Program-made: the position numbers and the translations under genes
Assembly (NCBI GenBank): GCA_963662265.2
Contig: CAXXHA010000001.1
Span: 64,001-128,000 of the forward strand
Direction: 5' to 3'
DNA from: Spirochaetia bacterium
Lineage (GTDB): Bacteria; Spirochaetota; Spirochaetia; CADAEX01
Length of the DNA stretch: 64,000 nucleotides
Part shown: piece after piece, positions 1,485 to 34,833 of the stretch
Position numbering within the stretch: the stretch's first letter is position 1
Layout of the letters: every line of letters starts with the position of its first letter
Notes under the pieces: model-generated
The model's database searches: none
Told to the model about the DNA's origin: nothing
The model's input: only the letters and a program-made list of their open reading frames with translations

Positions 1485-1563
1485 TCTTCCCCCCTTATCT
1501 ATTTGACTATCTGTCACTTGACAAATTAACGAACAATGTTCATTATTCATATATATAAGTTTA

Positions 1564-1577
1564 TTAGTTATATCTAA
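1564..1577. promoter_or_regulatory. TTAG-N6-CTAA box in chaN promoter
   Basis: TTAGTTATATCTAA lies in the spacer of minus-strand TTGACA-17-TAAACT. Confidence 0.75.
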
Positions 1578-1628
1578 TCATGTCAATGCAACGACAGTAT
1601 AAGTTAACTATTTATAAAGCAGGTAAAT

Positions 1629-4800: not shown

Positions 4801-4972
4801 AAAAACTCCTTAATAAATAGTATTCTATTTCATTATTTAAAATTAACATTAAAAAGAGCCGGAAATTTATCCGGCCCTGATCTCATATTTTTAACAGTTA
4901 ATTCAGTACCTTAGGGGATCTCAAAAAACGCTTTAGCGTTTTTTTCCATGAAGGCCCCATCTACCTTATAAC

Positions 4973-5467: not shown

Positions 5468-5544
5468 ACAAAACCTCCGTTGTACAGCAGATAACCATTA
5501 CAGGTTATCTGCAATTATTTTATTTTTATTTATTGCTTCTTTCA

Positions 5545-6489
5545 TCAGCAGACAGCTTTTATCTGCTCGCTTAAAGTACTAACAGCTGTATTTTTCAGAT
5601 ACAGAATATTCTTATTTTCCTTTTTGCATATTTTTTTCATTGATTTACAGGCTGAATGACTGATACAGTCAAGGGCACAGATAACAATATCTGCCTTAAG
5701 AGCTGTAGATGACAGTTTCTTCTTGGAATCTTCAAGACCTCCGTCATGATGAACGAAAAGGCCGTTTCCGGATTCAACAATTTCCCGGCAGTATTCTTTA
5801 AGCTTTTTACGCCCTCCCACCAGCAGTACTGTTTTACTTGAAAGATCAACAGAACTCTTTATAGAATCTATTCTATTTTTATATTCACAGTTATTCTGTT
5901 CAAAACAGCTGCATTCATCGTCATATTCAAATCCTTCAACACTGCAGTTTTCAAACTCAAGCCTGCTTATCTCTTCCTTCAGAATCATTTCATTGATTTC
6001 GTATTCTTCAATTCTGTTTTTAATAGTTTTTAAATCGTATTCATTTTTCCTGATAATGAAATCTTTTTCCTGCAGGTCTTTCTCAAGATGATTGATTTTT
6101 GTTTTGTAATTACAGGCTACTGTTTTATTCTGATCATGCTGTTCTGTCTTTATTAAATTATTTTTCCTATCCGCTCCATTCTTACGCTTCACAAATCTTC
6201 TGCACTGTATGATAAGATCATACCCAAGCATTGCGCCCAGAATAAAATCCTCGGTATCAGAAAGTTTATCAAGCTCAAGTGTTTGGAAATTACGAAGAAC
6301 ATTTATACATTCTCCGGCACCGAAAAATACATTTATTTTCTCAGAAGAAACATCATCAACAATATAACTTATTTCATGTTTTTCAAGCTTATCAATAATT
6401 CTTTCTTTTTCACTTACAGGGCCGGTGTACAAAACAAGTTTTCTCAACCCTTTTTTATATTCATATATGTGATGCACAAAGATCTTCAT
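5545..6489 (-). CDS. DUF2023 - coiled coil - DUF2325 fusion protein
   Basis: N-terminal HHIYEYKKGLRKL...DFILGAMLGYD (DUF2023). C-terminal VLLVGG...HHDGG...ADIVICALDCISH (DUF2325). Confidence 0.75.
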   Translation of the reverse strand: MKIFVHHIYEYKKGLRKLVLYTGPVSEKERIIDKLEKHEISYIVDDVSSEKINVFFGAGECINVLRNFQTLELDKLSDTEDFILGAMLGYDLIIQCRRFVKRKNGADRKNNLIKTEQHDQNKTVACNYKTKINHLEKDLQEKDFIIRKNEYDLKTIKNRIEEYEINEMILKEEISRLEFENCSVEGFEYDDECSCFEQNNCEYKNRIDSIKSSVDLSSKTVLLVGGRKKLKEYCREIVESGNGLFVHHDGGLEDSKKKLSSTALKADIVICALDCISHSACKSMKKICKKENKNILYLKNTAVSTLSEQIKAVC

Positions 6490-7118
6490 CCATTATCTCC
6501 TTACTGCTGATATATCTTCCCAGAACATTAACCATTGATTCAACAACTTCACTGGAGTATTTTATCCCTGCCTCATTTTTTATCATCCTGACTGCTTCAG
6601 CGGGATTTACAGGATCCTTGTAAGTCCTGAAAGTTGTCATGGCATCATAGGTATCAGCAACAGCAATTATCTTAGCCCCGGTGCTGATTTTATCACCACT
6701 CAGTCCGCAGGGATAACCGCTCCCGTCAATCCGTTCATGGTGCTGAACAACTATCTCTGCAATTGATTCAAATCCAGGTATATCTTTCAGAATTTTCCAG
6801 CCTATCCTTGAATGCTCTTTTATAACTTCATACTCACAGTCTTTCAGACTTCCTGTTTTCAGCAAAATACCATCAGGTATTCCAATCTTGCCAATGTCAT
6901 GCAGATGCCCCGCAATGTGAAGACCTTCACAACTGCTTTTTGACAACCCCATATCTCCTGCTATAAGCTCAGACAGAACAGCCACCCGGTCTGAATGACC
7001 AGCTGTATACTGATCCCTCGCCTCAAGAGCATTGGTCAAACTCTCCAGAAAACTGTGAAAAGTTATCCTGTTGATATTGAAATCAGCCACAAACCATATC
7101 CATATTAACTACTGTCAT
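6461..7118 (-). CDS. Stand-alone HD-GYP phosphodiesterase (apparent +1 frameshift near 7092)
   Basis: ARDQYTAGHS, LHDIGKIG and HHERIDGSGYP motifs. The ATG at 7118 has RBS AAGGGAG and joins the frame after removing one T. Confidence 0.9.
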
Positions 7119-7168
7119 AAGACTCCCTTAAATATCCATGTCACACTAATAAGTTTTTACTATTTTTG

Positions 7169-7182
7169 TTAGTCTTATCTAA
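7169..7182. promoter_or_regulatory. TTAG-N6-CTAA box at HD-GYP/flavodoxin operon promoter
   Basis: TTAGTCTTATCTAA abuts the -10 of minus-strand TTGACA-17-TAAAAT. Confidence 0.78.
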
Positions 7183-7304
7183 TTTTATATACTACATCTC
7201 GTTGTGTCAATATTTATTTGAAAGAATAATTACTTAATCATAACTTCGACAAATATTCCTGATGAAACTCAGGCTATGATTATCCGTTTTTTTAAAAAAA
7301 AGCA

Positions 7305-7341
7305 AAAAAAGGGCCGGATATAATTATTCCGGCCCTTTTCT
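7305..7341 (-). terminator. Rho-independent terminator (bidirectional-looking)
   Basis: AAAAGGGCCGGA...TCCGGCCCTTTT stem with A/T tails. Confidence 0.7.
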
Positions 7342-7615
7342 ATTTAAAAATACTTTTTTAATTCCGAAAAGATACATTTTACAGGAAACATATCCTTTCA
7401 CCTCCATTTCATGTCTGCAGAAAATAACGTCGGCACTTTTCAACGCAGCCATCATGGAGACCAACACAATAAGAAAATTCACAAGCTGATAAAAATGTGC
7501 ATATGGGGCAACATTTTCATCTGGCACTAACAACCTGTATAGCTGCAGAAAACTTCCGCAGCTGTCAGATCTATATCTTCGGGACGGGAAAATCCCGGAA
7601 GAAACTGTTTAATTT

Positions 7616-7792
7616 TTATTTTTTTAAATCCTTACAGGTGCAATTGTCTCCGCAGCATGTTCCCTCGCTGCAGCTGCACGATCCTTCACTGCAGCTGCAG
7701 GAACTTTCTTTTCCTGTAAACAGCCTGTATGACCGTCTGAGCAGAAATACAACAGCAATTGTTACCAATCCACCAACTAGAAATATTTTCAA
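7616..7792 (-). CDS. FeoB-associated Cys-rich small membrane protein
   Basis: TTG start after GAGGAG; one TM helix followed by SSCSCSEGSCSCSEGTCCGDNCTC. Confidence 0.8.
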   Translation of the reverse strand: MKIFLVGGLVTIAVVFLLRRSYRLFTGKESSCSCSEGSCSCSEGTCCGDNCTCKDLKK

Positions 7793-7809
7793 AACACTCT
7801 CCTCGTTTA

Positions 7810-7842
7810 TTAGACACATCTTATATTATTAGTTTATACTAA
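7810..7842. promoter_or_regulatory. Tandem TTAG-N6-CTAA boxes
   Basis: Perfect TTAGTTTATACTAA (7829-7842) overlaps the -10 of TTGACA-17-TAGTAT. Near match TTAGACACATCTTA at 7810-7823. Confidence 0.75.
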
Positions 7843-7973
7843 CTCCAAAACTATAAGATGTCAACAAAATATTTTCTTTAAGCCCAGTCACTATTTTTAA
7901 TATTATTTAATAGCAGTTATTATAAAATATCCAGCTGGTTTTAACCTTTCGCACTGTAAGTATTTATAACTAT

Positions 7974-8813
7974 TTATTCAATCTCTTTTGCTTCTATCCA
8001 GATAACTGCATCCTGTGAAAGCTCTTTTCCATCGAATGTAAGTTCTCCGCCAGCACCAAGTGCAGCAAATCCCCAGAAACCGGCCCTGTTGGGAACAAAT
8101 GAAAAGTTTCCATTTTCATCTGCAATCAGGACTGCAGCACCATGTCCATCTTTTTTAATTTTCTTTTCACCTGTAAAAGCGTTGCTTTTCATATCGATAT
8201 CATAGTTGATATATTCTACTTCAATTTCAGCCCCTGCAACAGGATTTCCCCTGCCGTCTACAACAATACCTCTGAAAATTCCGCCTGCCCACACATCATA
8301 AGGTTTTACAAGAGGAAGTATTTCCGGGTACCCGTCTGCAACCCTGTCTGACCAGTCTGTTGCTATATCAGATTTATTAAGAATAACTTTTGTTATCTGC
8401 TGAATATAGATATCTTCAGCCCCTTCATAGTAGGGATGAGGGATTGCTGTAATTACCCAGTCGCCTGCGCCTCTGAATTTTGATTCTTTATTAAGAACAA
8501 AGTCATATGCAACACCTGAGTTCTCGAGTGATTTAAATTCAATTTCCTTAAGCTTATCTGCAGAATCTACAGTTTTACCTGCATGTGTTATATTAAGTTT
8601 TTCAATTCCCTTAACTTCCCCTTTTTCATTTTTACCAATATCCATTGTGTGGCCGGCATCAAAGGGATGTGTAAAGACAAGTTTCATTGGGACTTCTGTT
8701 GTACTTTCATCAATTACAAATGAATCTGTATGAACCAGCTGAAAATGCGCGAAAGCATTGGCGCCGCTAAAAACAAACATTAAAGCTGATAATATTAATA
8801 ATCCTTTTTTCAT
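7974..8813 (-). CDS. DUF4198 (NikM-like) periplasmic protein, soluble paralog
   Basis: Signal peptide then HFQL, FTHPFDAGHTMD, PYYEGAEDIYIQQITK, GFWGFAALG and QDAVIW motifs. Confidence 0.85.
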   Translation of the reverse strand: MKKGLLILSALMFVFSGANAFAHFQLVHTDSFVIDESTTEVPMKLVFTHPFDAGHTMDIGKNEKGEVKGIEKLNITHAGKTVDSADKLKEIEFKSLENSGVAYDFVLNKESKFRGAGDWVITAIPHPYYEGAEDIYIQQITKVILNKSDIATDWSDRVADGYPEILPLVKPYDVWAGGIFRGIVVDGRGNPVAGAEIEVEYINYDIDMKSNAFTGEKKIKKDGHGAAVLIADENGNFSFVPNRAGFWGFAALGAGGELTFDGKELSQDAVIWIEAKEIE

Positions 8814-8826
8814 TATATTACTCCTT

Positions 8827-9795
8827 TTATTTTTTCTTTTTTCTAAATACTGCTAAAGCAACAACTGCAACAAAAGCAATAACAATATAAATAACAGTAT
8901 TACTGCTCTTCTCTTCTTTTACTTCAGCTTTAGTATCTGCAGAAGGTACAGCTGCTGCTTCAACTTCAAGATTAGCAGCTTCTATCCACAACACTGCGTC
9001 TGAAGAAAGCTCTTTGCCGTCATGAGTCATTTCTCCACCTGCTCCAAGAGCTGCAAATCCCCAGTAGCCTTCTCGGGGTGGAATAAAGTCAAAACAACCT
9101 TCAGCGTTTGCAAGAATTACTGCCGCGCCGTGTCCGTCTTTTTTAATTTTCTTTTCCCCGGAAAACTTGTTTGCTGCCATATCAATATCGTAGTTCATAT
9201 ACTCAACCTCTATTTCAGCAAAAGGCACAGGCTGACCTTCAGAATCAACAACAACTCCGCTGAAAATTCCGCCTGCCCATACATCGTACGGTTTCACCAG
9301 GGGCAGTATTTCAGGATAACCGGGAGCAAGACGTTCCTGCCAGTCTGTCGCAATATCAGACTTGTTTATCATTACCTTTGTGATCTGCTGGATGTAGATA
9401 TCCTCAGCTCCCTCATAGTAGGGATGAGGAACCGCTACAAACACCCAGTCACCGCTTCCTCTCAGCCCGAATTCTTTGTTGAATGTAAAATCAAATGCTG
9501 CTCCTGAATTTTCAAGAGATGCGAATTCAATTTCTTTCAAGCCGGGTTTGATATCTGTTTTTTTCCCTTTATGAACAACAAAGAATTCCTCAAAACCTTT
9601 TACTTCACCAGATTCGTTTTTTCCGATATCCATTGTATGGCCGGCATCAAACGGATGAGTAAAAACCATTTTAAAATCAACTTCTTTCACATCTTCTGCG
9701 ATTTTTGATACAGGTGTATATATCAACTGAAAATGTGAATAAGCTGAAGTAACAGAAAAAAGCAGAAAAACTGCGAGCAATTTAACTATTTTCAT
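8827..9795 (-). CDS. DUF4198 protein with C-terminal membrane anchor
   Basis: Same motifs as 7974-8813, plus a linker, a TM helix and an RKKKK tail. Confidence 0.85.
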   Translation of the reverse strand: MKIVKLLAVFLLFSVTSAYSHFQLIYTPVSKIAEDVKEVDFKMVFTHPFDAGHTMDIGKNESGEVKGFEEFFVVHKGKKTDIKPGLKEIEFASLENSGAAFDFTFNKEFGLRGSGDWVFVAVPHPYYEGAEDIYIQQITKVMINKSDIATDWQERLAPGYPEILPLVKPYDVWAGGIFSGVVVDSEGQPVPFAEIEVEYMNYDIDMAANKFSGEKKIKKDGHGAAVILANAEGCFDFIPPREGYWGFAALGAGGEMTHDGKELSSDAVLWIEAANLEVEAAAVPSADTKAEVKEEKSSNTVIYIVIAFVAVVALAVFRKKKK

Positions 9796-9928
9796 TCTGT
9801 ACCCTCCTTAAAAAATATTTTTATTAAATAATTTATTTTCATCACCACATAATTATTTTTTATGAGGTGAAGAAATCCATATTATAAAGCAAACCGATAT
9901 CAGCCTTTCACCTTTATAAAACCCACTA

Positions 9929-10483
9929 CTACTTTTTCTTTAAAACAAGGATGAGAAGACACATATTTATAAGGCTTACTACAAGTGCAATAATACTTAC
10001 AACAGGAGTTCCTGTATCAGGCATTGCCGCAGCTGTATCCAGGGGAGTCCAGTCCACAGGGGCCTGACTGCCGGAAGAGGATGATTCAGCACTTTTTTCT
10101 GCAGAACTGCCTGAAGATTCGTTTTCTGAAACTTCTGAACCTGCACCGAATCCACCGGGAGGAACAGGTCCCTCTTTTGTAACAACATGGCCGGGGCCGG
10201 CATCAAATGTAATAGTGTATGGCTCACCCGGTATATCAAGGTCCATTTCACTTATATCGGGGAGTTCACCTTCCCATAATGTTTTTCCTGTTTTTATGCT
10301 TTTTACATAAATCGCTACACCTGCAGCGCTTGAACCGTTTGAAAATCCACCCTGAACAAAAACTGTTCCATCGCCATTATCCTCAATGTAAAGAATGGGG
10401 GTATGGGCAAAAACTCCGGAAACAACAACAGCTGCCATAAAAACCACAATTAATAATCTTTTTTTGCATGCAGTCAGATTCAT
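9929..10483 (-). CDS. FpvJ-like exported protein with Ser-rich linker and C-terminal anchor
   Basis: Signal peptide, then HTP...DNGDG...GGFSNGS and FDAGPGH motifs resembling Pseudomonas FpvJ (recalled, not searched); MPDTG-TM-KKK tail. Confidence 0.7.
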   Translation of the reverse strand: MNLTACKKRLLIVVFMAAVVVSGVFAHTPILYIEDNGDGTVFVQGGFSNGSSAAGVAIYVKSIKTGKTLWEGELPDISEMDLDIPGEPYTITFDAGPGHVVTKEGPVPPGGFGAGSEVSENESSGSSAEKSAESSSSGSQAPVDWTPLDTAAAMPDTGTPVVSIIALVVSLINMCLLILVLKKK

Positions 10484-10718
10484 TATTTAAACTCCTTTTA
10501 TATACAGACAGGTTTATTAAGTAGTCATATCCCTGCTTTAATTTCTCAGCAAAACAGACACATATAAAGCTCTGCAATACACCTGCATCTGTTTTAATTT
10601 GTTTTCAGGATCATCATCTATCAGCATACGGAGGTAATTCCGCAACAGCAATTTCAGATCCTGCAGTACAGACTGAAAGACTTCCATACTGTTTATACAG
10701 ACTGATAGAGGCCTGTTG

Positions 10719-13610
10719 TCAGAATCCAAGCAGAGTTCCGACCTGATACACAATTACAGCTATAATCCCTCCAAGAGCTACCGGGTAAACAACAGAAAAT
10801 GCCATCCACAGCCAGCTGCCAGTCTCGCTTTTTATAGTCATCATTACAGCGACACAGGGAGGGAACAACGCGATCAGAAGCATTATTACAAGACCATCCA
10901 ATGCACTGAGGCCTGTTTCGCCACCCTTAATTCTTTCTTCAAGCTGACTGCCGTCATCACCGCTTCCCGACTCAACGCTGTATATTGTTCCGAGAGTCGA
11001 GACAAGAGCTTCCTTCGCAGCAAAAGCGCCGAGCACAGCAACATTCACCCTCCAGTCAAATCCTGCAAGCCGGCTTACAGGCTCAAAAAACTTGCCGGTT
11101 CTTCCGAGAACAGATGATTCAAGAATTTCTTTTTTATATTCTCTTCTTAGCAGTTTCAAATCGGCATTAACAGAGCGGAGTACTTTTGCAGTCTTTTTAG
11201 CGTCACTATCAAGAACAGTATCACCTTTGATTTTCAAATCACCTGTCCTGACAATTGCAAAGAAATACGGATTAGCCTTCATCCATTTTGTATAGAAATC
11301 TGATTTAACCAGATCCCTGCTGCTTTCAGATGCATTGCTGTAACTTTCCTTAAACATATCAAAATCTTTTTCATATGATTCAAGATATGACTCAAAAAGC
11401 GGCATATTTTCCCCGAGAAAGATTTTCCCTTTAAGAACAATTTTTGCAAACTCGGGATTTTCGAGGAAAAACCTCGAGTTGATCTGTTTCCTGACTTTTT
11501 CAGATTTCAGAAGATTCATGGCGCTGGCAATTTTATACTTTTCTTCAAACTGCATATAATCAACAAGCTGCTTTTCTGATGCTATATACTTTGTATAGGG
11601 ATTTGACAGCTTTATACCGAATTCCTCAATCTTCCTTTCCTGTTCAGTAAAATACCTGCTTTCCGCTTCACTGCTAATACCAGGAAAAGTTATTCCGGCC
11701 CAGATAACAACAGAAACAGCAATAACAATAGTCACAACCTTCTGAATAAAATGCCAGAGTCTTTCCCAGGTTCTGACAACTATTCCGCTTAATGTCGGAA
11801 GATTGAAGGAAGGAAGCTCAAGAACAAAAGGTTCAACCTCTCCGTGAATAACATATGTACTGAGGAATTTCGCAACCAGAAGGGCAGTAATAAGGGTAAA
11901 AAAAGATAATCCTCCCAGAATAAGCCACTGGCTGTTTACAAAAAAGATACTTGTTATAAGCACATAAAACGGGATCTTCGCCATGCAGTTAAGAAGAGGA
12001 AGTATAAGTATTGTAACAAGACGTGATTTATTATCCCTGATAGTCCTGGTTGACATTACACCGGGGACAACACACCCTCCCATAATAACACCGGAGAGTA
12101 TCATGGGCAGAGTTGACTGCCCGTGAAGACCGAACTTCCTCAAGATCCTGTCCATAATAAAGGCAATTCTTGCCATATACCCGACATCTTCCAGAAATGC
12201 GACAAGAGCAAACAGGCAAAGAAATATGGGAAGGTAGTTTAGAATCATTATCGCGCCGTCTATTACACCATTAAGGAGAAGCCCCCTGAGAAGTCCCCCT
12301 TCAACAATGCCGTCAGGAGGAATAAGCTGCGACACAACTGATCTGAAAAACTGGAAAACAGGAAATACCTTGTCTGTCATCCTGTATCCGAGTATTACAG
12401 TTATCCAGTAGAACACAAGAATCAGTTCAAGCAGGATAAGTGGTCCGTAAACCCTGTGACACAGCACCTGGTCAACCCTGTCTGTCCTGTTGACAGACAA
12501 TCCCTCTCTGTAAATTTTCAAAGCTCCGTATGTAAACAGGACTGAGAAAAATGAGGAAAAAAACCATCTGAAGAGATTATAATTTCCCGGATTATCAAAA
12601 ACCGCTATCCAGGAAAATGAAAAGTTTCTTAAAAACCCGAAAACACTATCAACAATACTGTTCAGAATAAACACAGAAACAAAACACAGGATTCCCATGC
12701 CTATTGAAAGGAAGGCTTTTTCCCTGGTCCTGTTTTTTTCAATAGATTGATCATCCAGCTCAATTTTTTTAACACATTTTTTTACTATTCTTTTGGCAGC
12801 AAAAGATCTGGCAAGCGCAATTTCTATCTCGAAACTGTGGCCGTGTTCTTTTTTATGTTCTTCCTCAAGCTTGTCGACAAGAGACAGAATAGAGTCAAAA
12901 TCTGAAAAATTCTCCCGCTGCTCCTTAATAACTTTCTCATCATGCTCTATCAGCTTTACTGCAAGCCATTTTAAAGGCAGATCCCTGTCAATTCTCTCAT
13001 TACCCTCAAGAGCAGCTTCAATCTTCCTTATCTGGGGTTCCATTCTTTCACTGTAATCAAGCTGATAAGGATTTATATCTATATTCTTGCGGTAAACATC
13101 ACGAATTACATTTTTGAGATCATCTATATACTGTTTTTTCTTTGCACTTCCGGAAATTACAGGAATACCAAGTTCCTTTTCCAGAAGTTTACTGTCTACC
13201 AGAAGACCGCTGCTTTCCGCTACATCCATTTTGTTCAAGTACATTACAACAGGTCGCCCCATTTCAAGAATCTGAAATGTAAGATAAAGCTGTCTTTCAA
13301 GATTTGAACCATCAGCAATATTGACAATTACTTCAGGCTTTTCATTTAAAATAAAATCACGGGAAACTCTTTCCTCTGGAGAATATGAAGTAAGGCTGTA
13401 TGTCCCCGGAAGGTCAGTAATACAAACCTCGCTCCCGTTGTATGTATATTCTCCGGTCTTTTTCTCAACAGTTATACCGGGGTAGTTTGCAACATGCTGC
13501 CTTGCCCCTGTCATCATATTAAAAAGTGTCGATTTGCCTGAATTAGGCTGCCCTGCAAAAGCTATATTACAACTGTTAACTGCTGTGGTAATTTCTGAAG
13601 TATTACTCAT
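10719..13610 (-). CDS. feoB: Ferrous iron transporter FeoB, enlarged (963 aa)
   Basis: GQPNSGKS, VANYPGITVE, DLPGTYSL and NKMD GTPase motifs; EDVGYMARIAF, ELPSF, FAAKE and PPC membrane motifs. Confidence 0.96.
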   Translation of the reverse strand: MSNTSEITTAVNSCNIAFAGQPNSGKSTLFNMMTGARQHVANYPGITVEKKTGEYTYNGSEVCITDLPGTYSLTSYSPEERVSRDFILNEKPEVIVNIADGSNLERQLYLTFQILEMGRPVVMYLNKMDVAESSGLLVDSKLLEKELGIPVISGSAKKKQYIDDLKNVIRDVYRKNIDINPYQLDYSERMEPQIRKIEAALEGNERIDRDLPLKWLAVKLIEHDEKVIKEQRENFSDFDSILSLVDKLEEEHKKEHGHSFEIEIALARSFAAKRIVKKCVKKIELDDQSIEKNRTREKAFLSIGMGILCFVSVFILNSIVDSVFGFLRNFSFSWIAVFDNPGNYNLFRWFFSSFFSVLFTYGALKIYREGLSVNRTDRVDQVLCHRVYGPLILLELILVFYWITVILGYRMTDKVFPVFQFFRSVVSQLIPPDGIVEGGLLRGLLLNGVIDGAIMILNYLPIFLCLFALVAFLEDVGYMARIAFIMDRILRKFGLHGQSTLPMILSGVIMGGCVVPGVMSTRTIRDNKSRLVTILILPLLNCMAKIPFYVLITSIFFVNSQWLILGGLSFFTLITALLVAKFLSTYVIHGEVEPFVLELPSFNLPTLSGIVVRTWERLWHFIQKVVTIVIAVSVVIWAGITFPGISSEAESRYFTEQERKIEEFGIKLSNPYTKYIASEKQLVDYMQFEEKYKIASAMNLLKSEKVRKQINSRFFLENPEFAKIVLKGKIFLGENMPLFESYLESYEKDFDMFKESYSNASESSRDLVKSDFYTKWMKANPYFFAIVRTGDLKIKGDTVLDSDAKKTAKVLRSVNADLKLLRREYKKEILESSVLGRTGKFFEPVSRLAGFDWRVNVAVLGAFAAKEALVSTLGTIYSVESGSGDDGSQLEERIKGGETGLSALDGLVIMLLIALFPPCVAVMMTIKSETGSWLWMAFSVVYPVALGGIIAVIVYQVGTLLGF

Positions 13611-13846
13611 AATACCTCTACCTTTATCTGTTTTGCCTCATTTTCTCTTATAGCAACTTTAGATCCGCAGACCATTACATCAAACGGATCAAGAAAAGGA
13701 GCTCTTCTTACAACAACAGCCTCTTCTCCGGGAGTAAAACCGAGACTGACAAGTCTCTGCAGAGTAATACCTGAAACAGCTATTTCCCTGATAACACATT
13801 TTTCCCCCTGTTTCATCTCATTAAGTGTACTCATTATATTTCCCAT
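13607..13846 (-). CDS. feoA: FeoA
   Basis: QRLVSLGFTPG...APFLDP...AIRENEA. Confidence 0.93.
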   Translation of the reverse strand: MGNIMSTLNEMKQGEKCVIREIAVSGITLQRLVSLGFTPGEEAVVVRRAPFLDPFDVMVCGSKVAIRENEAKQIKVEVL

Positions 13847-13852
13847 CTCCTT

Positions 13853-14083
13853 CTACAAAGGCTGTACCATGATTTTTACAGCCAGATTATAGTCAATTGC
13901 ATATCTTGAGCCATTTACGCTTACAAGGACAGGTCCGTTAATATCTGCCTGTGACGTAACAACAGAAAGCGGAGTATTTATATCAATCCCCATACTTCTT
14001 ATCCTTGTAAAACTGCTTCCATTTTCTTCAAAAAATTTAACAACAGCATTATCACCGGACTGCAGCATAATTAATGGCAGCAT
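13853..14083 (-). CDS. feoA: FeoA-family protein (second copy)
   Basis: MLPL start after GGAGGAG; RIRSMGI...GPVLVSVNGSRYAI...AVKIMV. Confidence 0.85.
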   Translation of the reverse strand: MLPLIMLQSGDNAVVKFFEENGSSFTRIRSMGIDINTPLSVVTSQADINGPVLVSVNGSRYAIDYNLAVKIMVQPL

Positions 14084-14163
14084 ACCTGTCTCCTCCCCGT
14101 AAGTTATACGAACAAAATGCATCTATTACAGAACACTAGCTCATTATTACTTTTCTAATATTA

Positions 14164-14177
14164 TTAGTCAAGACTAA
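14164..14177. promoter_or_regulatory. TTAG-N6-CTAA box in feo promoter
   Basis: TTATTAGTCAAGACTAATAA near-perfect palindrome directly downstream of a TTGCCT -35. Confidence 0.8.
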
Positions 14178-14359
14178 TAATAAGGCAAAAAAATCACCAT
14201 ACCCCTGCGGATTCTTACTTACAACTCTTACAGGACATATGATTACAAATACAGCCGGGACTAAACTCCCGGCTAAGCATCATTTCATGAATTATCAGAG
14301 CCTGCCAATCTTTAAAATATCCTGAATCAATCAACTCTCAAAACAGGGAATCTGATGAA

Positions 14360-14791
14360 TTATTCTTCACCCCTGAGTTTGTTTTCCCATTTTCTTATCT
14401 TCTTCTTATTCTCTTTAATAGCAGTTTCCCAGTCCTCTTTCTCCTCATCCATAAGCTTCGGACCTTTTACAGTTGCGATATGCCCGGGACCTGCATCAAA
14501 AACAACAACATACTTTGAAGCGGAAGGCTTGACAATTTCCATACAACCTGTTTCATCGAGACTGCCTGCAAAAAGGATTTTTTTCCCCTCCCAGCTTTTT
14601 TCAGATCCTGTATAAGCTTTATCTTCAACAATCAGCACCGGAAGCCGGGAAGCTGATGCCCCGTTGGAAAATCCCCCTTCAATAAATATTGTACCGTCTT
14701 CATTATCTTCAATAAATAAAAGAGGTGTATGCGCCCATACGCATACAATGCTGAAAAACAGCAGCGCTGAACATATTGCAAACTTCTTCAT
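14360..14791 (-). CDS. FpvJ-like exported protein, soluble paralog
   Basis: Signal peptide, then HTPLLFIEDNEDG...GGFSNG...FDAGPGH; paralog of 9929-10483. Confidence 0.72.
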   Translation of the reverse strand: MKKFAICSALLFFSIVCVWAHTPLLFIEDNEDGTIFIEGGFSNGASASRLPVLIVEDKAYTGSEKSWEGKKILFAGSLDETGCMEIVKPSASKYVVVFDAGPGHIATVKGPKLMDEEKEDWETAIKENKKKIRKWENKLRGEE

Positions 14792-14793
14792 AA

Positions 14794-15303
14794 TTATTCT
14801 CCTTCATAATCTGTTTCAACTGCCTGAATAATGCATTCAAGAACTGCAGCCGAAGTTATTGTAGCGCCGGAAACATCATCTATACCGCAACCATCAAATT
14901 CATACTTGTTATACGGCACATTGCTGCAGTCAAGGCCAATAAACTGATCAAGCCAGCTTTCTTTCAGGCATTTTCCTGCAATTTCCGGAGTTTCTTTTTT
15001 TGCCTCATAGGCAATCACTTTGTTTATTTTTTTTTCATTATCAAGACAGATAAGACATTTCACAGGACCGGCATACCCTTTCTCACTGCCGAAATAGGCA
15101 TATCCGAGAAGGTTGCTGCTTTTATCGCTGATTCTGTAATAAACAGATTTGCCTGATTTTATTTCATCAATACTTTTTGTGTGTTTAAAAACATATTTAA
15201 TTCTCTGAACAGAAAACCTGTCCAGAGAATTCACAGGAAATATTAAACATAAGATGAACAAAACTGAAAATAATACTGTTATTAGTTTTTTCCGATTATT
15301 CAT
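14794..15303 (-). CDS. FMN-binding (RnfG/NqrC-like) flavinylation-domain protein
   Basis: ATG at 15303 after AGGAG; N-terminal TM; GYAGP, ETP and the DDVSGATITS covalent-FMN motif. Confidence 0.85.
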   Translation of the reverse strand: MNNRKKLITVLFSVLFILCLIFPVNSLDRFSVQRIKYVFKHTKSIDEIKSGKSVYYRISDKSSNLLGYAYFGSEKGYAGPVKCLICLDNEKKINKVIAYEAKKETPEIAGKCLKESWLDQFIGLDCSNVPYNKYEFDGCGIDDVSGATITSAAVLECIIQAVETDYEGE

Positions 15304-15322
15304 GCCTTGACTTCTCCTGTTT

Positions 15323-16279
15323 TTAAAGAGAACTGAAAGCTTCAATCCATTTTGTGAGGATTTCAGGATACTCAAAAACATCAGATCCGATAAACCACGG
15401 AAGGTCTGTGATAATTTTATTATTTTTAATTGCAGGGATATCTCCGAGTTCAGGATTTTTTGAGACAGCTTTATCAATAGCTTTTACAAGACCTTCTCTG
15501 GCTCCGAAAAGAACAATAACATCAGGATTTGCTTCTTTCAGAACAGAAAGATCAAGAACAGGAAAATAACCTTTAACAATCTGGTTTTTGTTTGTATTAA
15601 GCTTGTCACTTATATTTGAACAGCCGAATGGCTCAAGAAAGTATTGATCTGTATAAAATCCTTTTGATTCTGCGCTGATAAATATTCTGCCTGTATCAGC
15701 CTTTTCAATACCTCTCAGCACTACTACATTCGTACCTGGGTTTACAGAACTGATCTTTTTTTCCGCTGCCGCAAGATCTCTCCTGTATTTTTTTACAAGT
15801 TTTTTACCCTCTTTTTCCTTTCCGAAATATTCAGCAACAGCCATTATTCCCTCTTCCGGACTTTCGGAGAAATCAAAAGTTTCTATTTTTACATTTTTGT
15901 CTTTGATAACTGGAACTATCTTCATACAGTCTGCTTTCTTCATGAGAACACAGAAGTTGTCATTTTTCTCAACAAGTACTGTATCAAGACTGTATTTATC
16001 AATCATTGCGGGAAGAATAGTCTTGTCCTTCATTGTTACTTTAACAGGACAACCGACAAGTTTGGCAGGATATTCTTTTGCCTTTGGCCACTGGCTGGCT
16101 CTTACCGACATGACTTTCGGCATATACCCGAGCCTTGCTGCAACATTCATTACCCTGTCGCCTACAACAGCAGCATTAATTGTCTCATATACTGCTTTAT
16201 CAGCACTTTCTGAATCTTCAACTGTAGCACATCCGGCAAGCAGAATAACTGCTGCCAGCAATATTATACTTTTTTTCAA
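15323..16279 (-). CDS. Fe-chelate/TroA-superfamily substrate-binding lipoprotein
   Basis: Lipobox LAGC; EANPDVIV and IPAIKNNKI class III SBP motifs. Confidence 0.78.
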   Translation of the reverse strand: MKKSIILLAAVILLAGCATVEDSESADKAVYETINAAVVGDRVMNVAARLGYMPKVMSVRASQWPKAKEYPAKLVGCPVKVTMKDKTILPAMIDKYSLDTVLVEKNDNFCVLMKKADCMKIVPVIKDKNVKIETFDFSESPEEGIMAVAEYFGKEKEGKKLVKKYRRDLAAAEKKISSVNPGTNVVVLRGIEKADTGRIFISAESKGFYTDQYFLEPFGCSNISDKLNTNKNQIVKGYFPVLDLSVLKEANPDVIVLFGAREGLVKAIDKAVSKNPELGDIPAIKNNKIITDLPWFIGSDVFEYPEILTKWIEAFSSL

Positions 16280-16313
16280 AATAAAAACCCCTTATTAGAC
16301 TGGTATTTAATTA

Positions 16314-16341
16314 TTAGATGCATCTAATTCATAATGTCTAA
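16314..16341. promoter_or_regulatory. TTAG-N6-CTAA box plus adjacent degenerate copy
   Basis: Perfect palindrome TTAGATGCATCTAA (16314-16327) followed by TTCATAATGTCTAA, upstream of the SBP operon. Confidence 0.78.
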
Positions 16342-19400: not shown

Positions 19401-20224
19401 AAATCATCAGCAGAAGACTCATCGAAAGGCGGCGCAGCTTCATCCGGGGTTATAATATCATCAGGCATCAAATCTTCCGAAGTTTCTTCAGAAGAAATCA
19501 CATCTGCCTGTTCTGAATCAATATCAGGAATTGAAAAATCCTCACCAAGATCTGATATATCAAAATCTCCGGCTTCGGAAGGCTCAATATTACCGAAATC
19601 TTCTATAGTTCCGCCGATTTCCTCAGCTGATTCTTCAGGAGCTGCAAATTCCTCAGATGACGGAATATCAAAACTCTCCGGTTCAATATCACCGATATCA
19701 GAAGTGTCTGAAATTAAATCCTCATCAAGATCAAGATCTTCAGGCATATCAAACATACCCGACATATCTTCTGATAAGTCTTCAGAAGCTTCACCTTCAG
19801 CAGTTTCTGGTAATTCTTCAAGATCCGGAAGTGAAAAATCCTCTTCAGCTGTTTCAGCAACAAGCTCATCAGACATTAGATCGCTTTCAATATCAGATTC
19901 AGAACTTTCAAACATTGAATCAAGATCAGGAATACTGCCGGTTTCATCGAAAGCAGAAGTCTCAGGACCTGTTTCACCTTCATCGGGCAAAGATCCAAGA
20001 TCAGTATCAAAAACATCGGGAGATTCGCCTTCACCGGGAATTACATCAGAAGATTCAGCAACATCTGAGATATCATTGAGAAGGGCAGAAATATCATCAG
20101 GCACACCCTGTTCAGGAGGGGGTATATCTACAATTTTCTCCCCGCGCTCAGCAAGTATCTGCTCTTCGTTTCCCAGTGAGTTAATTTGTCTTTTAAACTG
20201 CTCAATATCTTCTAACTTAGGCAT
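16475..20224 (-). CDS. flcA: Periplasmic-flagellum collar protein FlcA-like (acidic region, TM, TPRs)
   Basis: MPKLEDIEQFK N-terminus, long D/E-rich region, LNQLPRNLK segment, single TM, C-terminal TPRs: spirochaete FlcA architecture. Confidence 0.75.
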   Translation of the reverse strand: MPKLEDIEQFKRQINSLGNEEQILAERGEKIVDIPPPEQGVPDDISALLNDISDVAESSDVIPGEGESPDVFDTDLGSLPDEGETGPETSAFDETGSIPDLDSMFESSESDIESDLMSDELVAETAEEDFSLPDLEELPETAEGEASEDLSEDMSGMFDMPEDLDLDEDLISDTSDIGDIEPESFDIPSSEEFAAPEESAEEIGGTIEDFGNIEPSEAGDFDISDLGEDFSIPDIDSEQADVISSEETSEDLMPDDIITPDEAAPPFDESSADDFSGMTDVPDSDFSLLEGEEAVSDEFDEGLDFDAGELEAFDLPDDLDDGAETADLAEEPVFDEVPQDAGIDEEFEMPPEPAEGRGDTDIESFESETEDFEIPDISEESQDDVSEFEDFDLPEDLDADLEPETAAEESAELPQAEPAAESDEEFDLGSLEDISLDDEFEITPDDDLEGEDSLGSLEDLGDLEDVGDISAAPEASAGEADEFSLEDLGEEYSSLEEIEEEIIPESPGAGDFSGGQDYAVPETAEEDLEFSIDQEKLGRVTDTLNQLPRNLKLTIEDLIGNKGLSGKRLNNLVDKLATGASVKEIAGLAEKITGRKIRIPSQYERKTWEELEEEKKTFAYILRHQILPYAGKVALFTVALFFTVFVIKKQVYDPVYSSYLYNRGFEQLENENYKASDRLFNKASRLKPFKKQFYRYAEGYIERREYTRAEQKYTEMLGRALSSEREKSRKDQHTGYFPTDKKGFLDFAVLKTFYMGEYAESDRILDDFILQKGNKWDYEALLARIDNFLNWGELENKQFDSAEYVLNDSLSKFGNKPGLIFRKMAYYFHSGKINILEEKALSDVEAGEAKSVDARKYYSILGEFRNYVENIKEKYADSYMIADYYRYMIDHDNLDGVEEKLISVSNQDKNLIEPHYQLSRYWNRMEKKDLERRALSTIENLLNKTDMGYIRDNYPHSYNYAVSQRNRMDILTQNRLGKFYYNDNEILDAQRYYKKAVDRFEKYYPLPGDTASYGHIYEDLGDVYYYNAGKYNEALKYYAKAFNTGYKTDNLDYKIGFINYKNRNYSKAAEKFYDISLNARENEAALFAFANASFNYDVFSPAKAYYDRVIEKMEYWREHEKVFDLDRRKDQREVLEKLMQVYNNQGVTLFKLAEKNHNQEYYSKSLVYLSQSSELYDTLMRDPVTMDKTLTKPLAQLNMKWILLNSGWKNSTYAKSVVPYSSDNMSLDSPVIYNSIDHDLYGRVSRTLK

Positions 20225-20512
20225 AAATCCCTTATTCAGAATGTCGGAAAAGTGGGAATACTTACTTAGGCCGAAATTCCTAATTTTGTTATTTTATGCA
20301 ATTTTTTTACTTCATATCGAAAATATAAATTGTTATTACAAACCGCAGTATATTTTTACCCGGATAAAATTATTATTTCCAATTATAAAACAGGTAAAAC
20401 AAATACAAACTGCCGGCTCAGTTAAACTCTATACTATTTTAATAAATAAAAAAAGCTTAAAAACAATAGCGTGATCAGATGTTTATTATTGAGAACGCTG
20501 TATATGGTTATT

Positions 20513-20683
20513 AAAAAAGCGGTATTCAGGTGAATACCGCTTTATGAAAAAACAGGAAGTTTAATGTCTTACATTCAGCGTTTATGACGGATAAAAGCTG
20601 AATACTCTGTGTATCCCAATACACATCAATTAATAGGAGTGTGATGAGTCTAACTTTAGTTATCTATTAAAGTTAGACTCATC
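20513..20683 (-). ncRNA. Candidate iron-regulated small RNA (~170 nt)
   Basis: Four hairpins, the last an intrinsic terminator with a U6 tail. -10 candidates and a TTAG-N6-CTAA box lie at the predicted start. No ORF of note on this strand. Confidence 0.6.
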
Positions 20684-20686
20684 TAA
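20673..20686. promoter_or_regulatory. TTAG-N6-CTAA box
   Basis: TTAGACTCATCTAA immediately downstream of minus-strand TATTCT (20694-20689). Confidence 0.7.
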
Positions 20687-20706
20687 TAAGAATATCGCAT
20701 TATTAT

Positions 20707-20747
20707 AAAAAAAAAGCAAGCCGGAAAAACAAATTCCCGGCTTTTTT
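20707..20747. terminator. Bidirectional terminator after pdxT
   Basis: AAGCCGG...CCGGCTT stem flanked by A and T runs. Confidence 0.7.
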
Positions 20748-20764
20748 ATTAAATATTTCAATAA

Positions 20765-21340
20765 TCAGTATACAACTTCATTGAAAAAATATCTGTGAAG
20801 AGAATTATCATCTGTAAGCTCGGGATGAAAACTCGCTGCCAGTACATTTTTTTCCCGGAAAATTACTGCCTGCCTTTTTAAATACCCAAGCTTATCAACA
20901 TGCTTTCCCACACCTGTTACTTTAGGGGCTCGGATAAAAATCCCCCTTAAAATTCCGCTGCCTGACAAGGGTGTAGAAATTTCAGCATGAAAACTGTCCT
21001 TCTGCCTGCCGTAGCTGTTTCTCTCAACCTCAATATCAATAAGTCCAAGCGGTTTGAACGGGAGCCTGTCTGCATCCCTTGAAGCAATAATAAGCCCCGC
21101 ACATGTACCGAAATAGGGCAGGCCTGTTATAACAGCATCAGAAAGATATTCTCGCAATCCCCTCCTTTCCAAAAGACGGAGCATGACAGTGCTTTCCCCG
21201 CCGGGAACTATTATTGATGAAATATGATTAAAATCAGACCGGTTTTTAACCAGTCTGACCTTATAACCAAGTTTGCTGCAAACCTGCTCATGCTTTTCAA
21301 ATCCCCCCTGTAGGGCAAGTATTCCCGCAGTATGAGACAT
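20765..21340 (-). CDS. pdxT: PLP synthase glutaminase subunit
   Basis: ILALQG, PGGEST, GTCAG, RNSYGRQ, FIRAP and FHPEL motifs. Confidence 0.96.
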   Translation of the reverse strand: MSHTAGILALQGGFEKHEQVCSKLGYKVRLVKNRSDFNHISSIIVPGGESTVMLRLLERRGLREYLSDAVITGLPYFGTCAGLIIASRDADRLPFKPLGLIDIEVERNSYGRQKDSFHAEISTPLSGSGILRGIFIRAPKVTGVGKHVDKLGYLKRQAVIFREKNVLAASFHPELTDDNSLHRYFFNEVVY

Positions 21341-34694: not shown

Positions 34695-34768
34695 CGGGCT
34701 GTAGCGCAGGGGTTTAGCGTACATGTCTGGGGGACATGGGGTCGGCGGTTCAAATCCGCCCAGCCCGA
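34695..34768 (+). tRNA. tRNA-Pro (GGG)
   Basis: Acceptor stem CGGGCTG/CAGCCCG, anticodon arm CATGT-CTGGGGG-ACATG, T-loop GGTTCAAATCC; CCA not encoded. Confidence 0.96.
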
Positions 34769-34800
34769 ATAATTTATTCCTTGCTGGACAGGGACTTACG

Positions 34801-34833
34801 AGGCTATTTAGAATCATCTAAGTAGCCTTTTTT
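34801..34833 (+). terminator. tRNA terminator
   Basis: AGGCTATTTAGA...TCTAAGTAGCCT followed by a T run. Confidence 0.75.

What the first reader, a model, noticed from the sequence alone, without database searches (positions are those of the whole stretch)
20513..20720. Candidate iron-repressed small RNA (RyhB/FsrA analogue) in a spirochaete
Seen on the minus strand between pdxT and flcA: -10 candidates TATTCT (20694-20689) and TATAAT (20707-20702), and the iron box over the predicted +1 (~20683). Then a perfect 16-bp hairpin (20643-20658/20668-20683), single-stranded ACACUCCUAUUAAUUG, hairpins at 20608-20625 and 20573-20603, single-stranded AAACUUCCUGUUUU, and a strong terminator (20516-20543) with U6. 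It is the only promoter box with no protein gene behind it. Established: iron-sparing sRNAs are repressed by the iron regulator, and FsrA uses C-rich loops against RBSs. Inference: the CUCCU and CUUCCU segments are anti-SD seeds that silence iron-protein mRNAs. I know of no such sRNA described in spirochaetes. Caveat: the TTGCTT -35 is 19 bp from TATTCT.
Basis: partly seen in the sequence, partly recalled or inferred. Interest (0 to 1): 0.85.

Follow-up and report, generated by a model that had tools for sequence, protein, structure and literature searches.

The report
Possible iron-controlled small RNA, one spirochaete
A short gene-free stretch next to a spirochaete flagellar gene carries a genuine binding site of the organism's iron-uptake control system followed by a terminator, so it may make a small iron-controlled regulatory RNA, but it exists only in this one species and nothing yet shows that it is transcribed.

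Summary
The "iron box" is real. Its 18-mer TATTAGATGAGTCTAACT (20688-20671) matches the operator upstream of a haem/siderophore-type binding-protein gene at 15 of 15 specified bases. The same palindrome sits in the promoters of feoA-feoA-feoB, a flavodoxin operon, a TonB-dependent receptor operon and others, and in the syntenic island of two sister species.

The RNA part is weaker. The fold z-score of -7.8 comes only from the 16-bp palindrome and the terminator. The body between them is at chance (z -1.4), and the plus strand folds equally well. The -35 is poor, whereas four of five other boxed promoters in the window score at least 10 of 12.

The roughly 220-nt stretch is a lineage-specific insertion between pdxT and its ancestral terminator. 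It was found in none of the 40 relatives searched, and relatives in sequencing runs lack it. It has no Rfam match, no Shine-Dalgarno-led ORF and no RNA-seq data. Target prediction is non-specific.

Verdict: a plausible but unproven species-specific analogue of FsrA/IsrR; confidence about 0.4.

The parts
20544..20764 (-). Lineage-specific insertion ('insert A') between the pdxT stop codon and the ancestral pdxT terminator. It contains every new element of the candidate.
   Evidence: The pdxT-to-flcA gap is 540 nt here, about 190 nt in G001 and about 95 nt in G002. Contigs of relatives in runs X5 and X6 join 20269 to 20775 with 53 other letters between. No DNA match was found in 40 relatives, 19 family genomes, plasmids or phages, or elsewhere in the own genome.
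20718..20743 (-). New terminator-like hairpin directly after pdxT (T1), followed by G C T9. It insulates the candidate from pdxT read-through.
   Evidence: Flagged (10 pairs, 5 of them G-C). Energy -15.5 kcal/mol.
20689..20719 (-). Putative promoter: TTGCTT (20719-20714), TATAAT (20707-20702) and TATTCT (20694-20689).
   Evidence: Read. TTGCTT matches 3 of 6 and lies 19 nt from TATTCT. TATAAT has no -35. Neither combination passes the sigma-70 scan.
20671..20688 (.). Operator ('iron box') TATTAGATGAGTCTAACT, an 18-bp imperfect palindrome that starts right after TATTCT and covers the predicted +1.
   Evidence: PWM score 20.0 bits. Leave-one-out score 18.95 bits.
20643..20683 (-). Perfect 16-bp inverted repeat with a 9-nt loop (HP1). 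It begins at the predicted +1, and its 5' arm is part of the operator. The 3' arm carries a weak second box copy (8.4 bits).
20627..20642 (-). Unpaired stretch ACACUCCUAUUAAUUG containing CUCCU (20639-20635).
   Evidence: Unpaired in the centroid structure. Mean unpaired probability 0.82 for the stretch and 0.67 for CUCCU.
20572..20625 (-). Two small hairpins: HP2 at 20625-20608 and HP3 at 20604-20572.
   Evidence: Energies -5.9 and -10.5 kcal/mol. The body that contains them folds no better than shuffles (z -1.41).
20544..20571 (-). Unpaired stretch ...GACAUUAAACUUCCUGUUUUUUCAU. CAUUAAACUUCCUG is complementary to an SD-spacer-AUG string (CAGGAAGUUUAAUG).
   Evidence: CUUCCU unpaired probability 0.80. 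This stretch pairs with more translation-initiation regions than shuffles do.
20510..20543 (-). Intrinsic terminator T2 (12-bp stem, U6). It is the ancestral pdxT terminator, reused as the 3' end of the candidate.
   Evidence: Energy -16.8 kcal/mol. Both arms, AAAGCGGTA...TACCGCTTTTTT, are identical in G001, where it directly follows pdxT.
16312..16329 (.). Sister operator upstream of the Peripla_BP_2 / IsdE-like lipoprotein gene (16279-15323, minus strand).
14162..14179 (.). Operator overlapping the -35 of the feoA-feoA-feoB promoter (TTGACT-17-AATAAT). It was not used to train the PWM.
   Evidence: (16.5 bits).
7167..7184 (.). Operator at the promoter (TTGACA-17-TAAAAT) of the HD-domain / DUF2023-DUF2325 / flavodoxin FldA operon.
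7808..7844 (.). Two adjacent operators at the promoter (TTGACA-17-TAGTAT) of a 67-aa Cys-rich membrane ORF (7819-7616, minus strand).
1562..1579 (.). Operator downstream of TTGACA-17-CATTAT, upstream of a MATE transporter gene.

Best explanation
The stretch is a young, species-specific transcription unit. It arose when about 220 nt were inserted between pdxT and the ancestral pdxT terminator.

The insertion brought three things. The first is a new pdxT terminator. The second is a weak promoter whose -10 abuts a full-strength copy of the operator that controls this organism's iron-acquisition/iron-sparing regulon. The third is a perfect 16-bp hairpin starting at the predicted +1.

Proposed mechanism (inferred, not shown): when iron is sufficient, the regulon's repressor sits on the box over +1. 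When iron is scarce, a non-coding RNA of about 172 nt (about 20683 to about 20512) is made and ends at the old pdxT terminator. Its 5' hairpin would stabilise it. Its two unpaired pyrimidine-rich stretches (CUCCU, and CAUUAAACUUCCUG) could pair with Shine-Dalgarno/start regions of mRNAs without Hfq, as FsrA and IsrR do.

Shown here: operator identity, regulon composition, the terminator, absence of a credible ORF, and the insertion history.

Inferred: promoter activity, iron response, and any target.
For: Operator:
- The box matches the Peripla_BP_2 operator at 15 of 15 specified bases. It is one of only two exact hits in the window.
- Its leave-one-out PWM score is 18.95 bits.
- Genome-wide, 8 sites reach 18 bits or more against 0 expected.
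- These sites include promoters of feoAAB (independent of the training set), the fldA operon, a TonB-dependent receptor with an ABC transporter, a hypothetical gene with a TonB-like gene, the IsdE-like gene and a MATE gene.
- Boxes recur in the syntenic island of G001 and G002.

Geometry:
- The -10-like TATTCT directly precedes the box, as at the fldA-operon and Peripla_BP_2 promoters.
- HP1 starts at the predicted +1.

Transcription unit:
- It is flanked by its own upstream terminator T1 and by T2 with U6.
- None of the 8 ORFs of 10 aa or more has an SD.
- flcA keeps its own conserved promoter and leader downstream of T2.

Seeds:
- The seeds are mostly unpaired.
- Segment 2 pairs with more translation-initiation regions than 12 shuffles do: 1347 against 892 +/- 155 at -12 kcal/mol or lower.
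- The segment-1 top 10 includes a GltB-type glutamate synthase N-terminus and a [2Fe-2S] thioredoxin-like ferredoxin. The segment-2 top 10 includes HypC.
- No Hfq gene was found. This fits an Hfq-independent mode.
Against: - No homologue exists anywhere, so no covariation is available: 0 of 40 relatives, 0 of 19 family genomes, none in plasmids or phages, and no Rfam family.
- The promoter is sub-consensus and is not flagged by the scan. Four of five other boxed promoters in the window score at least 10 of 12 with TTGAC(A/T) at a 17-nt spacing.
- The RNA body is not significantly structured (z -1.41).
- The overall z-score is carried by a palindrome that overlaps the DNA operator and by a pre-existing terminator. 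The plus strand folds as well.
- Two anti-SD-like motifs occur in 9.1% of intergenic windows.
- Segment 1 pairs no better than shuffles: minimum -20.5 against -20.95 +/- 1.74, and 339 against 371 +/- 94 hits.
- No single outlier target was found. Two Fe-S proteins among ten is not significant.
- The regulator is unknown. A TetR-family gene lies directly behind a box in both sister species, so the signal might not be iron itself.
Confidence: 0.4

Rival explanations
1. Non-functional relic. The insertion is patchwork DNA acquired during the same rearrangements that placed the Peripla_BP_2 / FMN_bind / NikL-like cassette on the other side of flcA. It carries an operator copy and promoter debris, for example the 5' end of a lost iron-regulated gene. 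It binds the regulator, but it yields no RNA or only a spurious short RNA without targets.
For: - The element is absent from all relatives, and the whole pdxT-flcA spacer of this genome is swollen by at least three extra pieces: 20544-20764, about 20446-20515 and 20268-20419.
- flcA is flanked by near-identical boxes at 20688 and 16329. In G001 and G002, feoAB follows flcA directly, so the neighbourhood was rearranged in this lineage.
- The -35 is weak, the body is unstructured, and target prediction is non-specific.
Against: - No trace of coding remnants or of a donor sequence was found in the genome: blastn with short words and tblastx.
- The box is full-strength, not decayed.
- A perfect 16-bp hairpin starts exactly at the predicted +1.
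- A dedicated upstream terminator plus a downstream terminator give the layout of a complete unit.
Confidence: 0.3
2. DNA-level element only. The palindrome with its strong and weak box copies is an auxiliary or high-affinity regulator-binding site, or a quasi-palindrome made by template switching. It would have no role as RNA.
For: - HP1 overlaps the operator, and its 3' arm repeats most of a box 33 bp away, about three helical turns (8.4 bits).
- Both strands fold equally.
- The Peripla_BP_2 operator is also embedded in nested TTAGAC/GTCTAA half-sites.
Against: - The second copy scores far below the functional sites (8.4 against at least 15.8 bits).
- No gene nearby would be regulated from it. 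The flcA promoter lies about 240 nt away behind a terminator.
- A binding site alone does not explain T1 or the -10-like hexamers.
Confidence: 0.12
3. An iron-regulated upstream promoter and long leader of flcA. Transcription from the boxed promoter would partly read through T2 into the flagellar-collar gene, with T2 acting as an attenuator.
For: The element is on the same strand as flcA, about 460 nt upstream of its ATG. No other gene lies between them.
Against: - T2 is a strong terminator (-16.8 kcal/mol, U6) that serves as the pdxT terminator in G001.
- flcA has its own promoter-like TAGTATA(G/A)AGTTT and an almost invariant leader, conserved in three species, downstream of T2.
- The sister species manage without the upstream element.
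- I know of no reason for iron control of a flagellar collar protein (own knowledge).
Confidence: 0.08
4. A small protein gene: the 32-aa GTG ORF at 20624-20526 or the 14-aa ATG ORF at 20626-20582.
For: Open frames exist.
Against: - No Shine-Dalgarno motif lies upstream of any of the 8 ORFs of 10 aa or more in 20480-20770. The sequence before them is CUCCU, which is anti-SD-like.
- There is no conservation.
- The 32-aa frame runs through the terminator stem.
Confidence: 0.03

Closest known systems
IsrR (Staphylococcus aureus) and FsrA (Bacillus subtilis): iron-regulator-repressed, Hfq-independent iron-sparing sRNAs
   Same: - An operator of the iron regulon lies in the promoter.
- It is a stand-alone non-coding unit of about 170 nt ending in an intrinsic terminator.
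- It has unpaired pyrimidine/C-containing stretches that could cover ribosome-binding sites.
- No Hfq gene was found.
- A GltB-type gene is among the predicted targets. FsrA represses gltAB according to passages of PMC11257911.
   Different: - There is no sequence or structure homology.
- The seeds are CUCCU and CUUCCU rather than runs of C.
- The operator is a TTAGAT..ATCTAA palindrome, not a classical Fur box (my recollection of Fur boxes), and its regulator is unidentified.
- Expression, iron response and targets are untested.
- It is present in a single genome.
RyhB (Enterobacteria), also PrrF and NrrF: Fur-repressed, Hfq-dependent iron-sparing sRNAs
   Same: The proposed logic is the same: a repressor on the promoter when iron is replete, and an sRNA that down-regulates iron-rich proteins when iron is scarce. 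The co-regulated flavodoxin gene fits an iron-sparing programme.
   Different: - No Rfam match was found even at E up to 10.
- No Hfq was found.
- The length and architecture differ.
- It is not conserved even within the genus.
sRNAs catalogued in spirochaetes (Borrelia and Leptospira transcriptome maps; PerR-linked non-coding RNAs of Leptospira)
   Same: Same phylum, and a stand-alone intergenic candidate.
   Different: In the listings and abstracts of three searches I saw no iron-sparing riboregulator described for a spirochaete. I did not read those papers in full, and supplements were closed.

Membership tests
RyhB / PrrF / NrrF / FsrA families in Rfam | Match to the family covariance model (sequence plus structure) | tested here: not met
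   With gathering cut-offs, only a tRNA was found in the window. At E up to 10 on 20150-20850 there were 29 weak hits, none to an iron sRNA family and all far below gathering scores.
Iron-sparing sRNA (functional class: RyhB, FsrA, IsrR) | Promoter carries the operator of the iron-responsive regulon | tested here: met
   The box scores 18.95 bits leave-one-out. The same operator lies at the feoAAB, fldA-operon, TonB-dependent receptor and IsdE-like promoters. The regulator itself was not identified: two Fur-family, two DtxR-family and box-linked TetR candidates exist.
Iron-sparing sRNA (functional class) | A functional promoter and a discrete transcript induced by iron limitation | not testable with these tools
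   No RNA run was listed for this organism. The promoter is sub-consensus in the sigma-70 scan.
Iron-sparing sRNA (functional class) | Non-coding, ending in an intrinsic terminator | tested here: met
   There is no SD-led ORF. T2 has an energy of -16.8 kcal/mol and a U6 tail, and is conserved as a terminator in G001.
Iron-sparing sRNA (functional class) | Accessible seed regions that pair specifically with mRNAs of iron-containing proteins | tested here: inconclusive
   The seeds are mostly unpaired. Segment 2 shows generic enrichment over shuffles, and segment 1 shows none. The top-10 lists contain 2 Fe-S proteins (segment 1) and HypC (segment 2) among unrelated genes.
RyhB-type (Hfq-dependent) | Presence of Hfq | tested here: not met
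   PF17209 was not found in the genome, which is 90.6% complete.
Conserved structured sRNA (any) | Homologues with compensatory changes, and a structure beyond chance | tested here: not met
   No homologue was found. The body has z -1.41, and the structure signal is confined to HP1 and the terminator.
TroR/DtxR-type operator (Treponema tro operon) | Similarity of the box to the 18-bp tro operator | tested here: inconclusive
   The only operator string printed in the passages I read of PMC2628430 is the four-base mutant version. It shows no TTAGA..TCTAA core. The wild-type figure is not held.

The most novel reading that the evidence does not exclude
This would be a riboregulator caught at birth. 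A single insertion placed an iron-regulon operator-promoter module and a 5' stabilising hairpin upstream of the pre-existing pdxT terminator. That would have created, in one species only, an Hfq-independent iron-sparing sRNA with anti-SD/anti-start seeds. As far as my searches show, it would be the first such regulator in the phylum Spirochaetota. It would be controlled by a previously undescribed TTAGAT-N2-ATCTAA operator, whose regulator may be an autoregulated TetR-family protein rather than Fur.
Probability: 0.2. Interest if true: 0.7.

Novelty: new member of a known kind. Interest (0 to 1): 0.45.

Why it matters
If the RNA is real, it would extend the iron-sparing sRNA principle (RyhB, FsrA, IsrR) to spirochaetes. 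My three literature searches (listings and abstracts only) showed no such regulator there.

It would also be a dated example of how an sRNA gene arises: an operator-bearing promoter inserted in front of an existing terminator. Sister species that lack it would serve as natural controls.

Whatever the fate of the RNA, the work defines a conserved 18-bp operator and a compact iron regulon in this genus. The regulon comprises feoAAB, flavodoxin, a TonB-dependent receptor with an ABC transporter, a TonB-like gene and an IsdE-like binding protein. This gives a handle for finding the unknown regulator.

If the RNA is not made, the locus is an ordinary piece of lineage-specific intergenic DNA carrying a stray operator.

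Tried and rejected
- Rfam. Gathering cut-offs on the whole window and E up to 10 on 20150-20850 found no relevant family.
- Homologues by DNA. The own genome gave only self-matches and internal inverted matches. I found 0 of 40 relatives, 0 of 19 family genomes and no plasmid or phage match.
- Syntenic loci via the PdxT protein. In metagenome contigs the best identity was 48%, so there were no close relatives. In genome contigs the best was 48%, and close relatives seem to be withheld. Neither gave usable comparators, and both scans are now spent.
- RNA evidence. No RNA holder was listed.
- Laying contigs of X1 and X4-X6. This showed an identical strain at low depth. It also showed relatives that lack the insert. 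It gave no expression information.
- Coding remnants. tblastx of the 540-nt spacer against the genome gave nothing below E 0.18.
- Small ORFs. These were rejected for lack of an SD.
- Target prediction. I used a home-made gene call (3250 genes) and RNA.duplexfold on 3246 translation-initiation regions. There was no outlier. Segment 1 was no better than shuffles. Segment 2 was only generically better. Pfam labels of the 20 top hits showed no clear iron theme.
- Orphan boxes in the sister species. None of the stored box loci that scored 13 bits or more lacked a nearby gene.
- TroR operator comparison. Inconclusive.
- My label 'FeoB-associated Cys-rich membrane protein' for the 67-aa ORF at 7819-7616 is recalled. 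It had no NCBIfam or Pfam hit.
- Supplementary files of papers were not opened. Supplements of spirochaete transcriptome papers could list iron-responsive sRNAs that I did not see.
Full report
**The locus.**
- All features discussed lie on the minus strand.
- pdxS (22252-21344) and pdxT (21340-20765) match the SOR_SNZ and SNO families.
- A 540-nt spacer follows them.
- Next comes a 1249-aa TPR protein gene (20224-16475). It matches the NCBIfam models for the periplasmic flagellar collar protein FlcA above their cut-offs.
- The genome is 3.77 Mb, 38.5% G+C, in 41 contigs.

**Checking the observation.**
- A terminator-like hairpin lies right after pdxT: 20743-20718, -15.5 kcal/mol, followed by T9.
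- TATAAT lies at 20707-20702 and TATTCT at 20694-20689.
- TTGCTT lies 19 nt before TATTCT.
- The box TTATTAGATGAGTCTAA lies at 20689-20673.
- A perfect 16-bp hairpin lies at 20683-20643 (-22.0 kcal/mol).
- Two small hairpins have energies of -5.9 and -10.5 kcal/mol.
- A 12-bp terminator lies at 20543-20516 (-16.8 kcal/mol) with U6.
- The 181-nt region folds at -57.1 kcal/mol against -27.5 +/- 3.8 for shuffles (z -7.8, 0 of 200).

**Is the 'iron box' real? Yes.**
- TTAGANNNNTCTAA occurs exactly three times in the window against 0.14 expected. One of the three is a tRNA terminator and probably chance.
- The longer TTATTAGATGNNTCTAA occurs exactly twice. One copy is here. The other is at 16311-16327, in front of a lipoprotein gene of the Peripla_BP_2 / IsdE-like family.
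- I built a palindromic weight matrix from nine sites seen by eye. It finds 8 sites of at least 18 bits in the genome, against 0 expected in a Markov simulation, and 10 of at least 16 bits against 3.8 expected.
- At lower thresholds the genome has fewer hits than the simulation: 38 against 90 at 12 bits or more. Only the strong sites are therefore meaningful.
- The matrix is partly circular, so three less circular points matter:
  1. A site not used for training (14162-14179, 16.5 bits) overlaps the -35 of the promoter of feoA-feoA-feoB.
  2. The candidate's box scores 18.95 bits when left out of the training set.
  3. The two sister species G001 and G002 carry strong boxes (14-20 bits) in the syntenic island next to flcA. 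They lie in front of their feoB region, the DUF2023/flavodoxin operon, a TonB-dependent-receptor-like gene and a TetR-family gene.
- The boxed units of this genome are:
  - feoAAB;
  - an HD-domain / DUF2023-DUF2325 / flavodoxin FldA operon;
  - a 67-aa Cys-rich membrane ORF;
  - the IsdE-like binding protein;
  - a TonB-dependent receptor with an ABC transporter;
  - a hypothetical gene followed by a TonB-like gene and a TetR gene;
  - a MATE transporter.
- Ferrous and chelated iron uptake together with flavodoxin is the classical make-up of an iron-limitation regulon (established knowledge). I therefore accept 'iron-type operator' with roughly 0.75 confidence.
- The regulator is not identified.
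  - The genome has two Fur-family and two DtxR-family genes above cut-off.
  - In both sister species a TetR-family gene sits immediately behind a box. It is 47-49% identical to C1:39499-40104 of this genome. This looks like autoregulation and makes that protein a candidate too.
  - The T. denticola TroR operator, as far as the passages show it, is unlike the box.

**Is there a promoter?** This is the weakest link.
- The sigma-70 scan flags nothing at 20690-20740.
- Four of the five other boxed promoters in the window are among its best hits: TTGACA-17-TAAAAT (11 of 12), TTGACA-17-CATTAT, TTGACT-17-AATAAT and TTGACA-17-TAGTAT (10 of 12 each).
- The fifth, the Peripla_BP_2 promoter, reads TTGAGT-17-CATTAT by eye and is also unflagged.
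- The candidate has only TTGCTT (3 of 6) at 19 nt from TATTCT, or a perfect TATAAT with no -35 and no TG extension.
- In its favour, the -10-like TATTCT directly abuts the box, as at the fldA-operon and Peripla_BP_2 promoters. The 16-bp hairpin also begins at the G (20683) where a start would be expected.

**Is there a structured RNA?** Only in part.
- Without the 5' hairpin and the terminator, the 98-nt body (20642-20545) folds at -17.7 kcal/mol against -13.7 +/- 2.8 for shuffles (z -1.41, 18 of 200 as good).
- The plus strand of the whole region folds even better (z -8.6).
- The strand call therefore rests on the two U-tails.
- The 5' hairpin overlaps the DNA operator. Its 3' arm repeats most of a box, but this scores only 8.4 bits.
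- None of the eight ORFs of at least 10 aa in the region has a Shine-Dalgarno motif. A non-coding reading is therefore reasonable.

**History of the locus.**
- Synteny pdxT-flcA is kept in G001 and G002. There PdxT is 70% and 69% identical, and FlcA is 73% and 64% identical. Their spacers are only about 190 and about 95 nt.
- In G001 the terminator AAAGCGGTA...TACCGCTTTTTT follows pdxT after about 45 nt. It has the same arm sequences as the candidate's terminator.
- In all three species the terminator region is followed by TAGTATA(G/A)AGTTT and by an almost invariant leader of about 50 nt before the flcA ATG.
- Contigs of related organisms in public runs agree. One joins 20267 to 20420. Two others join 20269 to 20775 with 53 other letters between.
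- Hence 20544-20764 is an insertion in this lineage. I read it as an insertion rather than a deletion in the others because both sister species and the run-derived relatives are short.
- The insertion lies between pdxT and its old terminator.
- At least two further pieces (about 20446-20515 and 20268-20419) were added to the same spacer.
- The candidate's 3' end is therefore an old terminator. Its 5' part is new DNA with no detectable source: own genome, 40 relatives, 19 family genomes, plasmids and phages.
- This history also shows that flcA has its own promoter beyond the terminator. That argues against the element being merely the flcA leader.

**Seeds and targets.**
- CUCCU and CUUCCU are mostly unpaired in the ensemble (0.67 and 0.80).
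- Two or more anti-SD-like motifs occur in 9.1% of 15,040 intergenic 172-nt windows. Both exact motifs occur together in 0.8%.
- CAUUAAACUUCCUG is complementary to an SD-spacer-AUG string. This is read directly from the sequence.
- I tested 3246 translation-initiation regions from a home-made gene call.
  - The first stretch pairs no better than 12 dinucleotide shuffles.
  - The second pairs with more regions: 1347 against 892 +/- 155 at -12 kcal/mol or lower, and a top-15 mean of -22.0 against -20.5 +/- 0.6. This is what a generic anti-SD sequence would do.
  - No target stands out.
- The ten best for stretch 1 include a GltB-type glutamate synthase N-terminus and a thioredoxin-like [2Fe-2S] ferredoxin. 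Those for stretch 2 include HypC. The rest are unrelated.
- FsrA is reported to repress gltAB (passages of PMC11257911), but the pairing here is only 7-9 bp centred on the SD. I count this as inconclusive.
- No Hfq gene was found (the genome is 90.6% complete).

**Conclusion.**
- The operator is genuine, and the layout has four parts in order: an upstream terminator, an operator over +1, no ORF, and a downstream terminator. This is the layout expected of a stand-alone iron-repressed sRNA of the FsrA/IsrR kind.
- However, promoter strength, body structure, conservation, expression and targets give no positive support, and the element is a recent insertion.
- My confidences are:
  - about 0.4 for 'a species-specific iron-regulon-controlled small RNA'. 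Within that, I put the probability of a true iron-sparing, anti-SD mode of action at about 0.2 overall;
  - about 0.3 for a functionless relic;
  - about 0.12 for a DNA-only site;
  - about 0.08 for a flcA upstream promoter;
  - about 0.03 for a peptide.
- It is not a member of any Rfam family. If real, it is a new functional analogue, not a homologue.

**Literature.**
- Three full-text searches were inspected as listings and abstract starts only. They showed sRNA catalogues for Borrelia and Leptospira and PerR-linked non-coding RNAs, but no iron-sparing sRNA described in a spirochaete.
- I read passages of PMC2628430 and PMC11257911 only.
- Supplements were closed.

Noticed in passing
window 1562-16329, also G000 C1:42124-51769; relatives L196 and L197: An 18-bp palindromic operator (consensus about TATTAGAT-NN-ATCTAATA) marks a compact iron regulon clustered on C1:42-85 kb. 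The regulon comprises feoAAB, the flavodoxin operon, a TonB-dependent receptor with an ABC transporter, a TonB-like gene, an IsdE-like binding protein, a Cys-rich 67-aa ORF and a MATE transporter. The operator is conserved in the syntenic island of two sister species. I could not match it to a described operator.
   Followed up: partly
L196:3571-4242 (G002), L197:15358-16000 (G001), G000 C1:39499-40104: A TetR-family regulator gene lies immediately behind a strong box in both sister species. In this genome it lies at the end of a boxed operon. It may be the autoregulated box-binding regulator, which would be unusual for an iron regulon.
   Followed up: partly
G000 C19:8313-8330: A second strong box (18.1 bits) has no gene behind it. 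It lies in a convergent intergenic region between a 72-aa ORF (plus strand) and the terminator of a minus-strand gene, with a TAAAAT 3 nt upstream on the plus strand. It could be a second orphan unit or chance.
   Followed up: partly
window 20225-20267: The flcA leader (about 50 nt up to the ATG) is almost invariant across three species whose FlcA proteins are only 64-73% identical. Such conservation suggests a regulatory RNA or protein-binding element in the 5' UTR of the flagellar collar gene.
   Followed up: no
window 20268-20419 and about 20446-20515: Two further lineage-specific A+T-rich insertions lie in the same spacer. One is between the flcA promoter and its leader. The other is between the terminator and the promoter. 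Their origin is unknown, and there are no repeats elsewhere in the genome.
   Followed up: partly
window 14360-16279: This genome has a three-gene cassette between flcA and feoAAB: an IsdE-like binding protein, an FMN_bind protein and a NikL-like small membrane protein. It is absent at that place in G001 and G002, where feoAB follows flcA directly.
   Followed up: partly
L010:540-1000 (G002): The N-terminal part of FlcA in G002 contains a long tandem array of near-identical acidic repeat units. This genome's copy does not show the array in the same form.
   Followed up: no
window 34695-34830: A tRNA gene is followed by a terminator whose stem happens to contain TTAGAATCATCTAA. It matches the core box pattern but scores only 12.4 bits, so it is probably chance.
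   Followed up: yes
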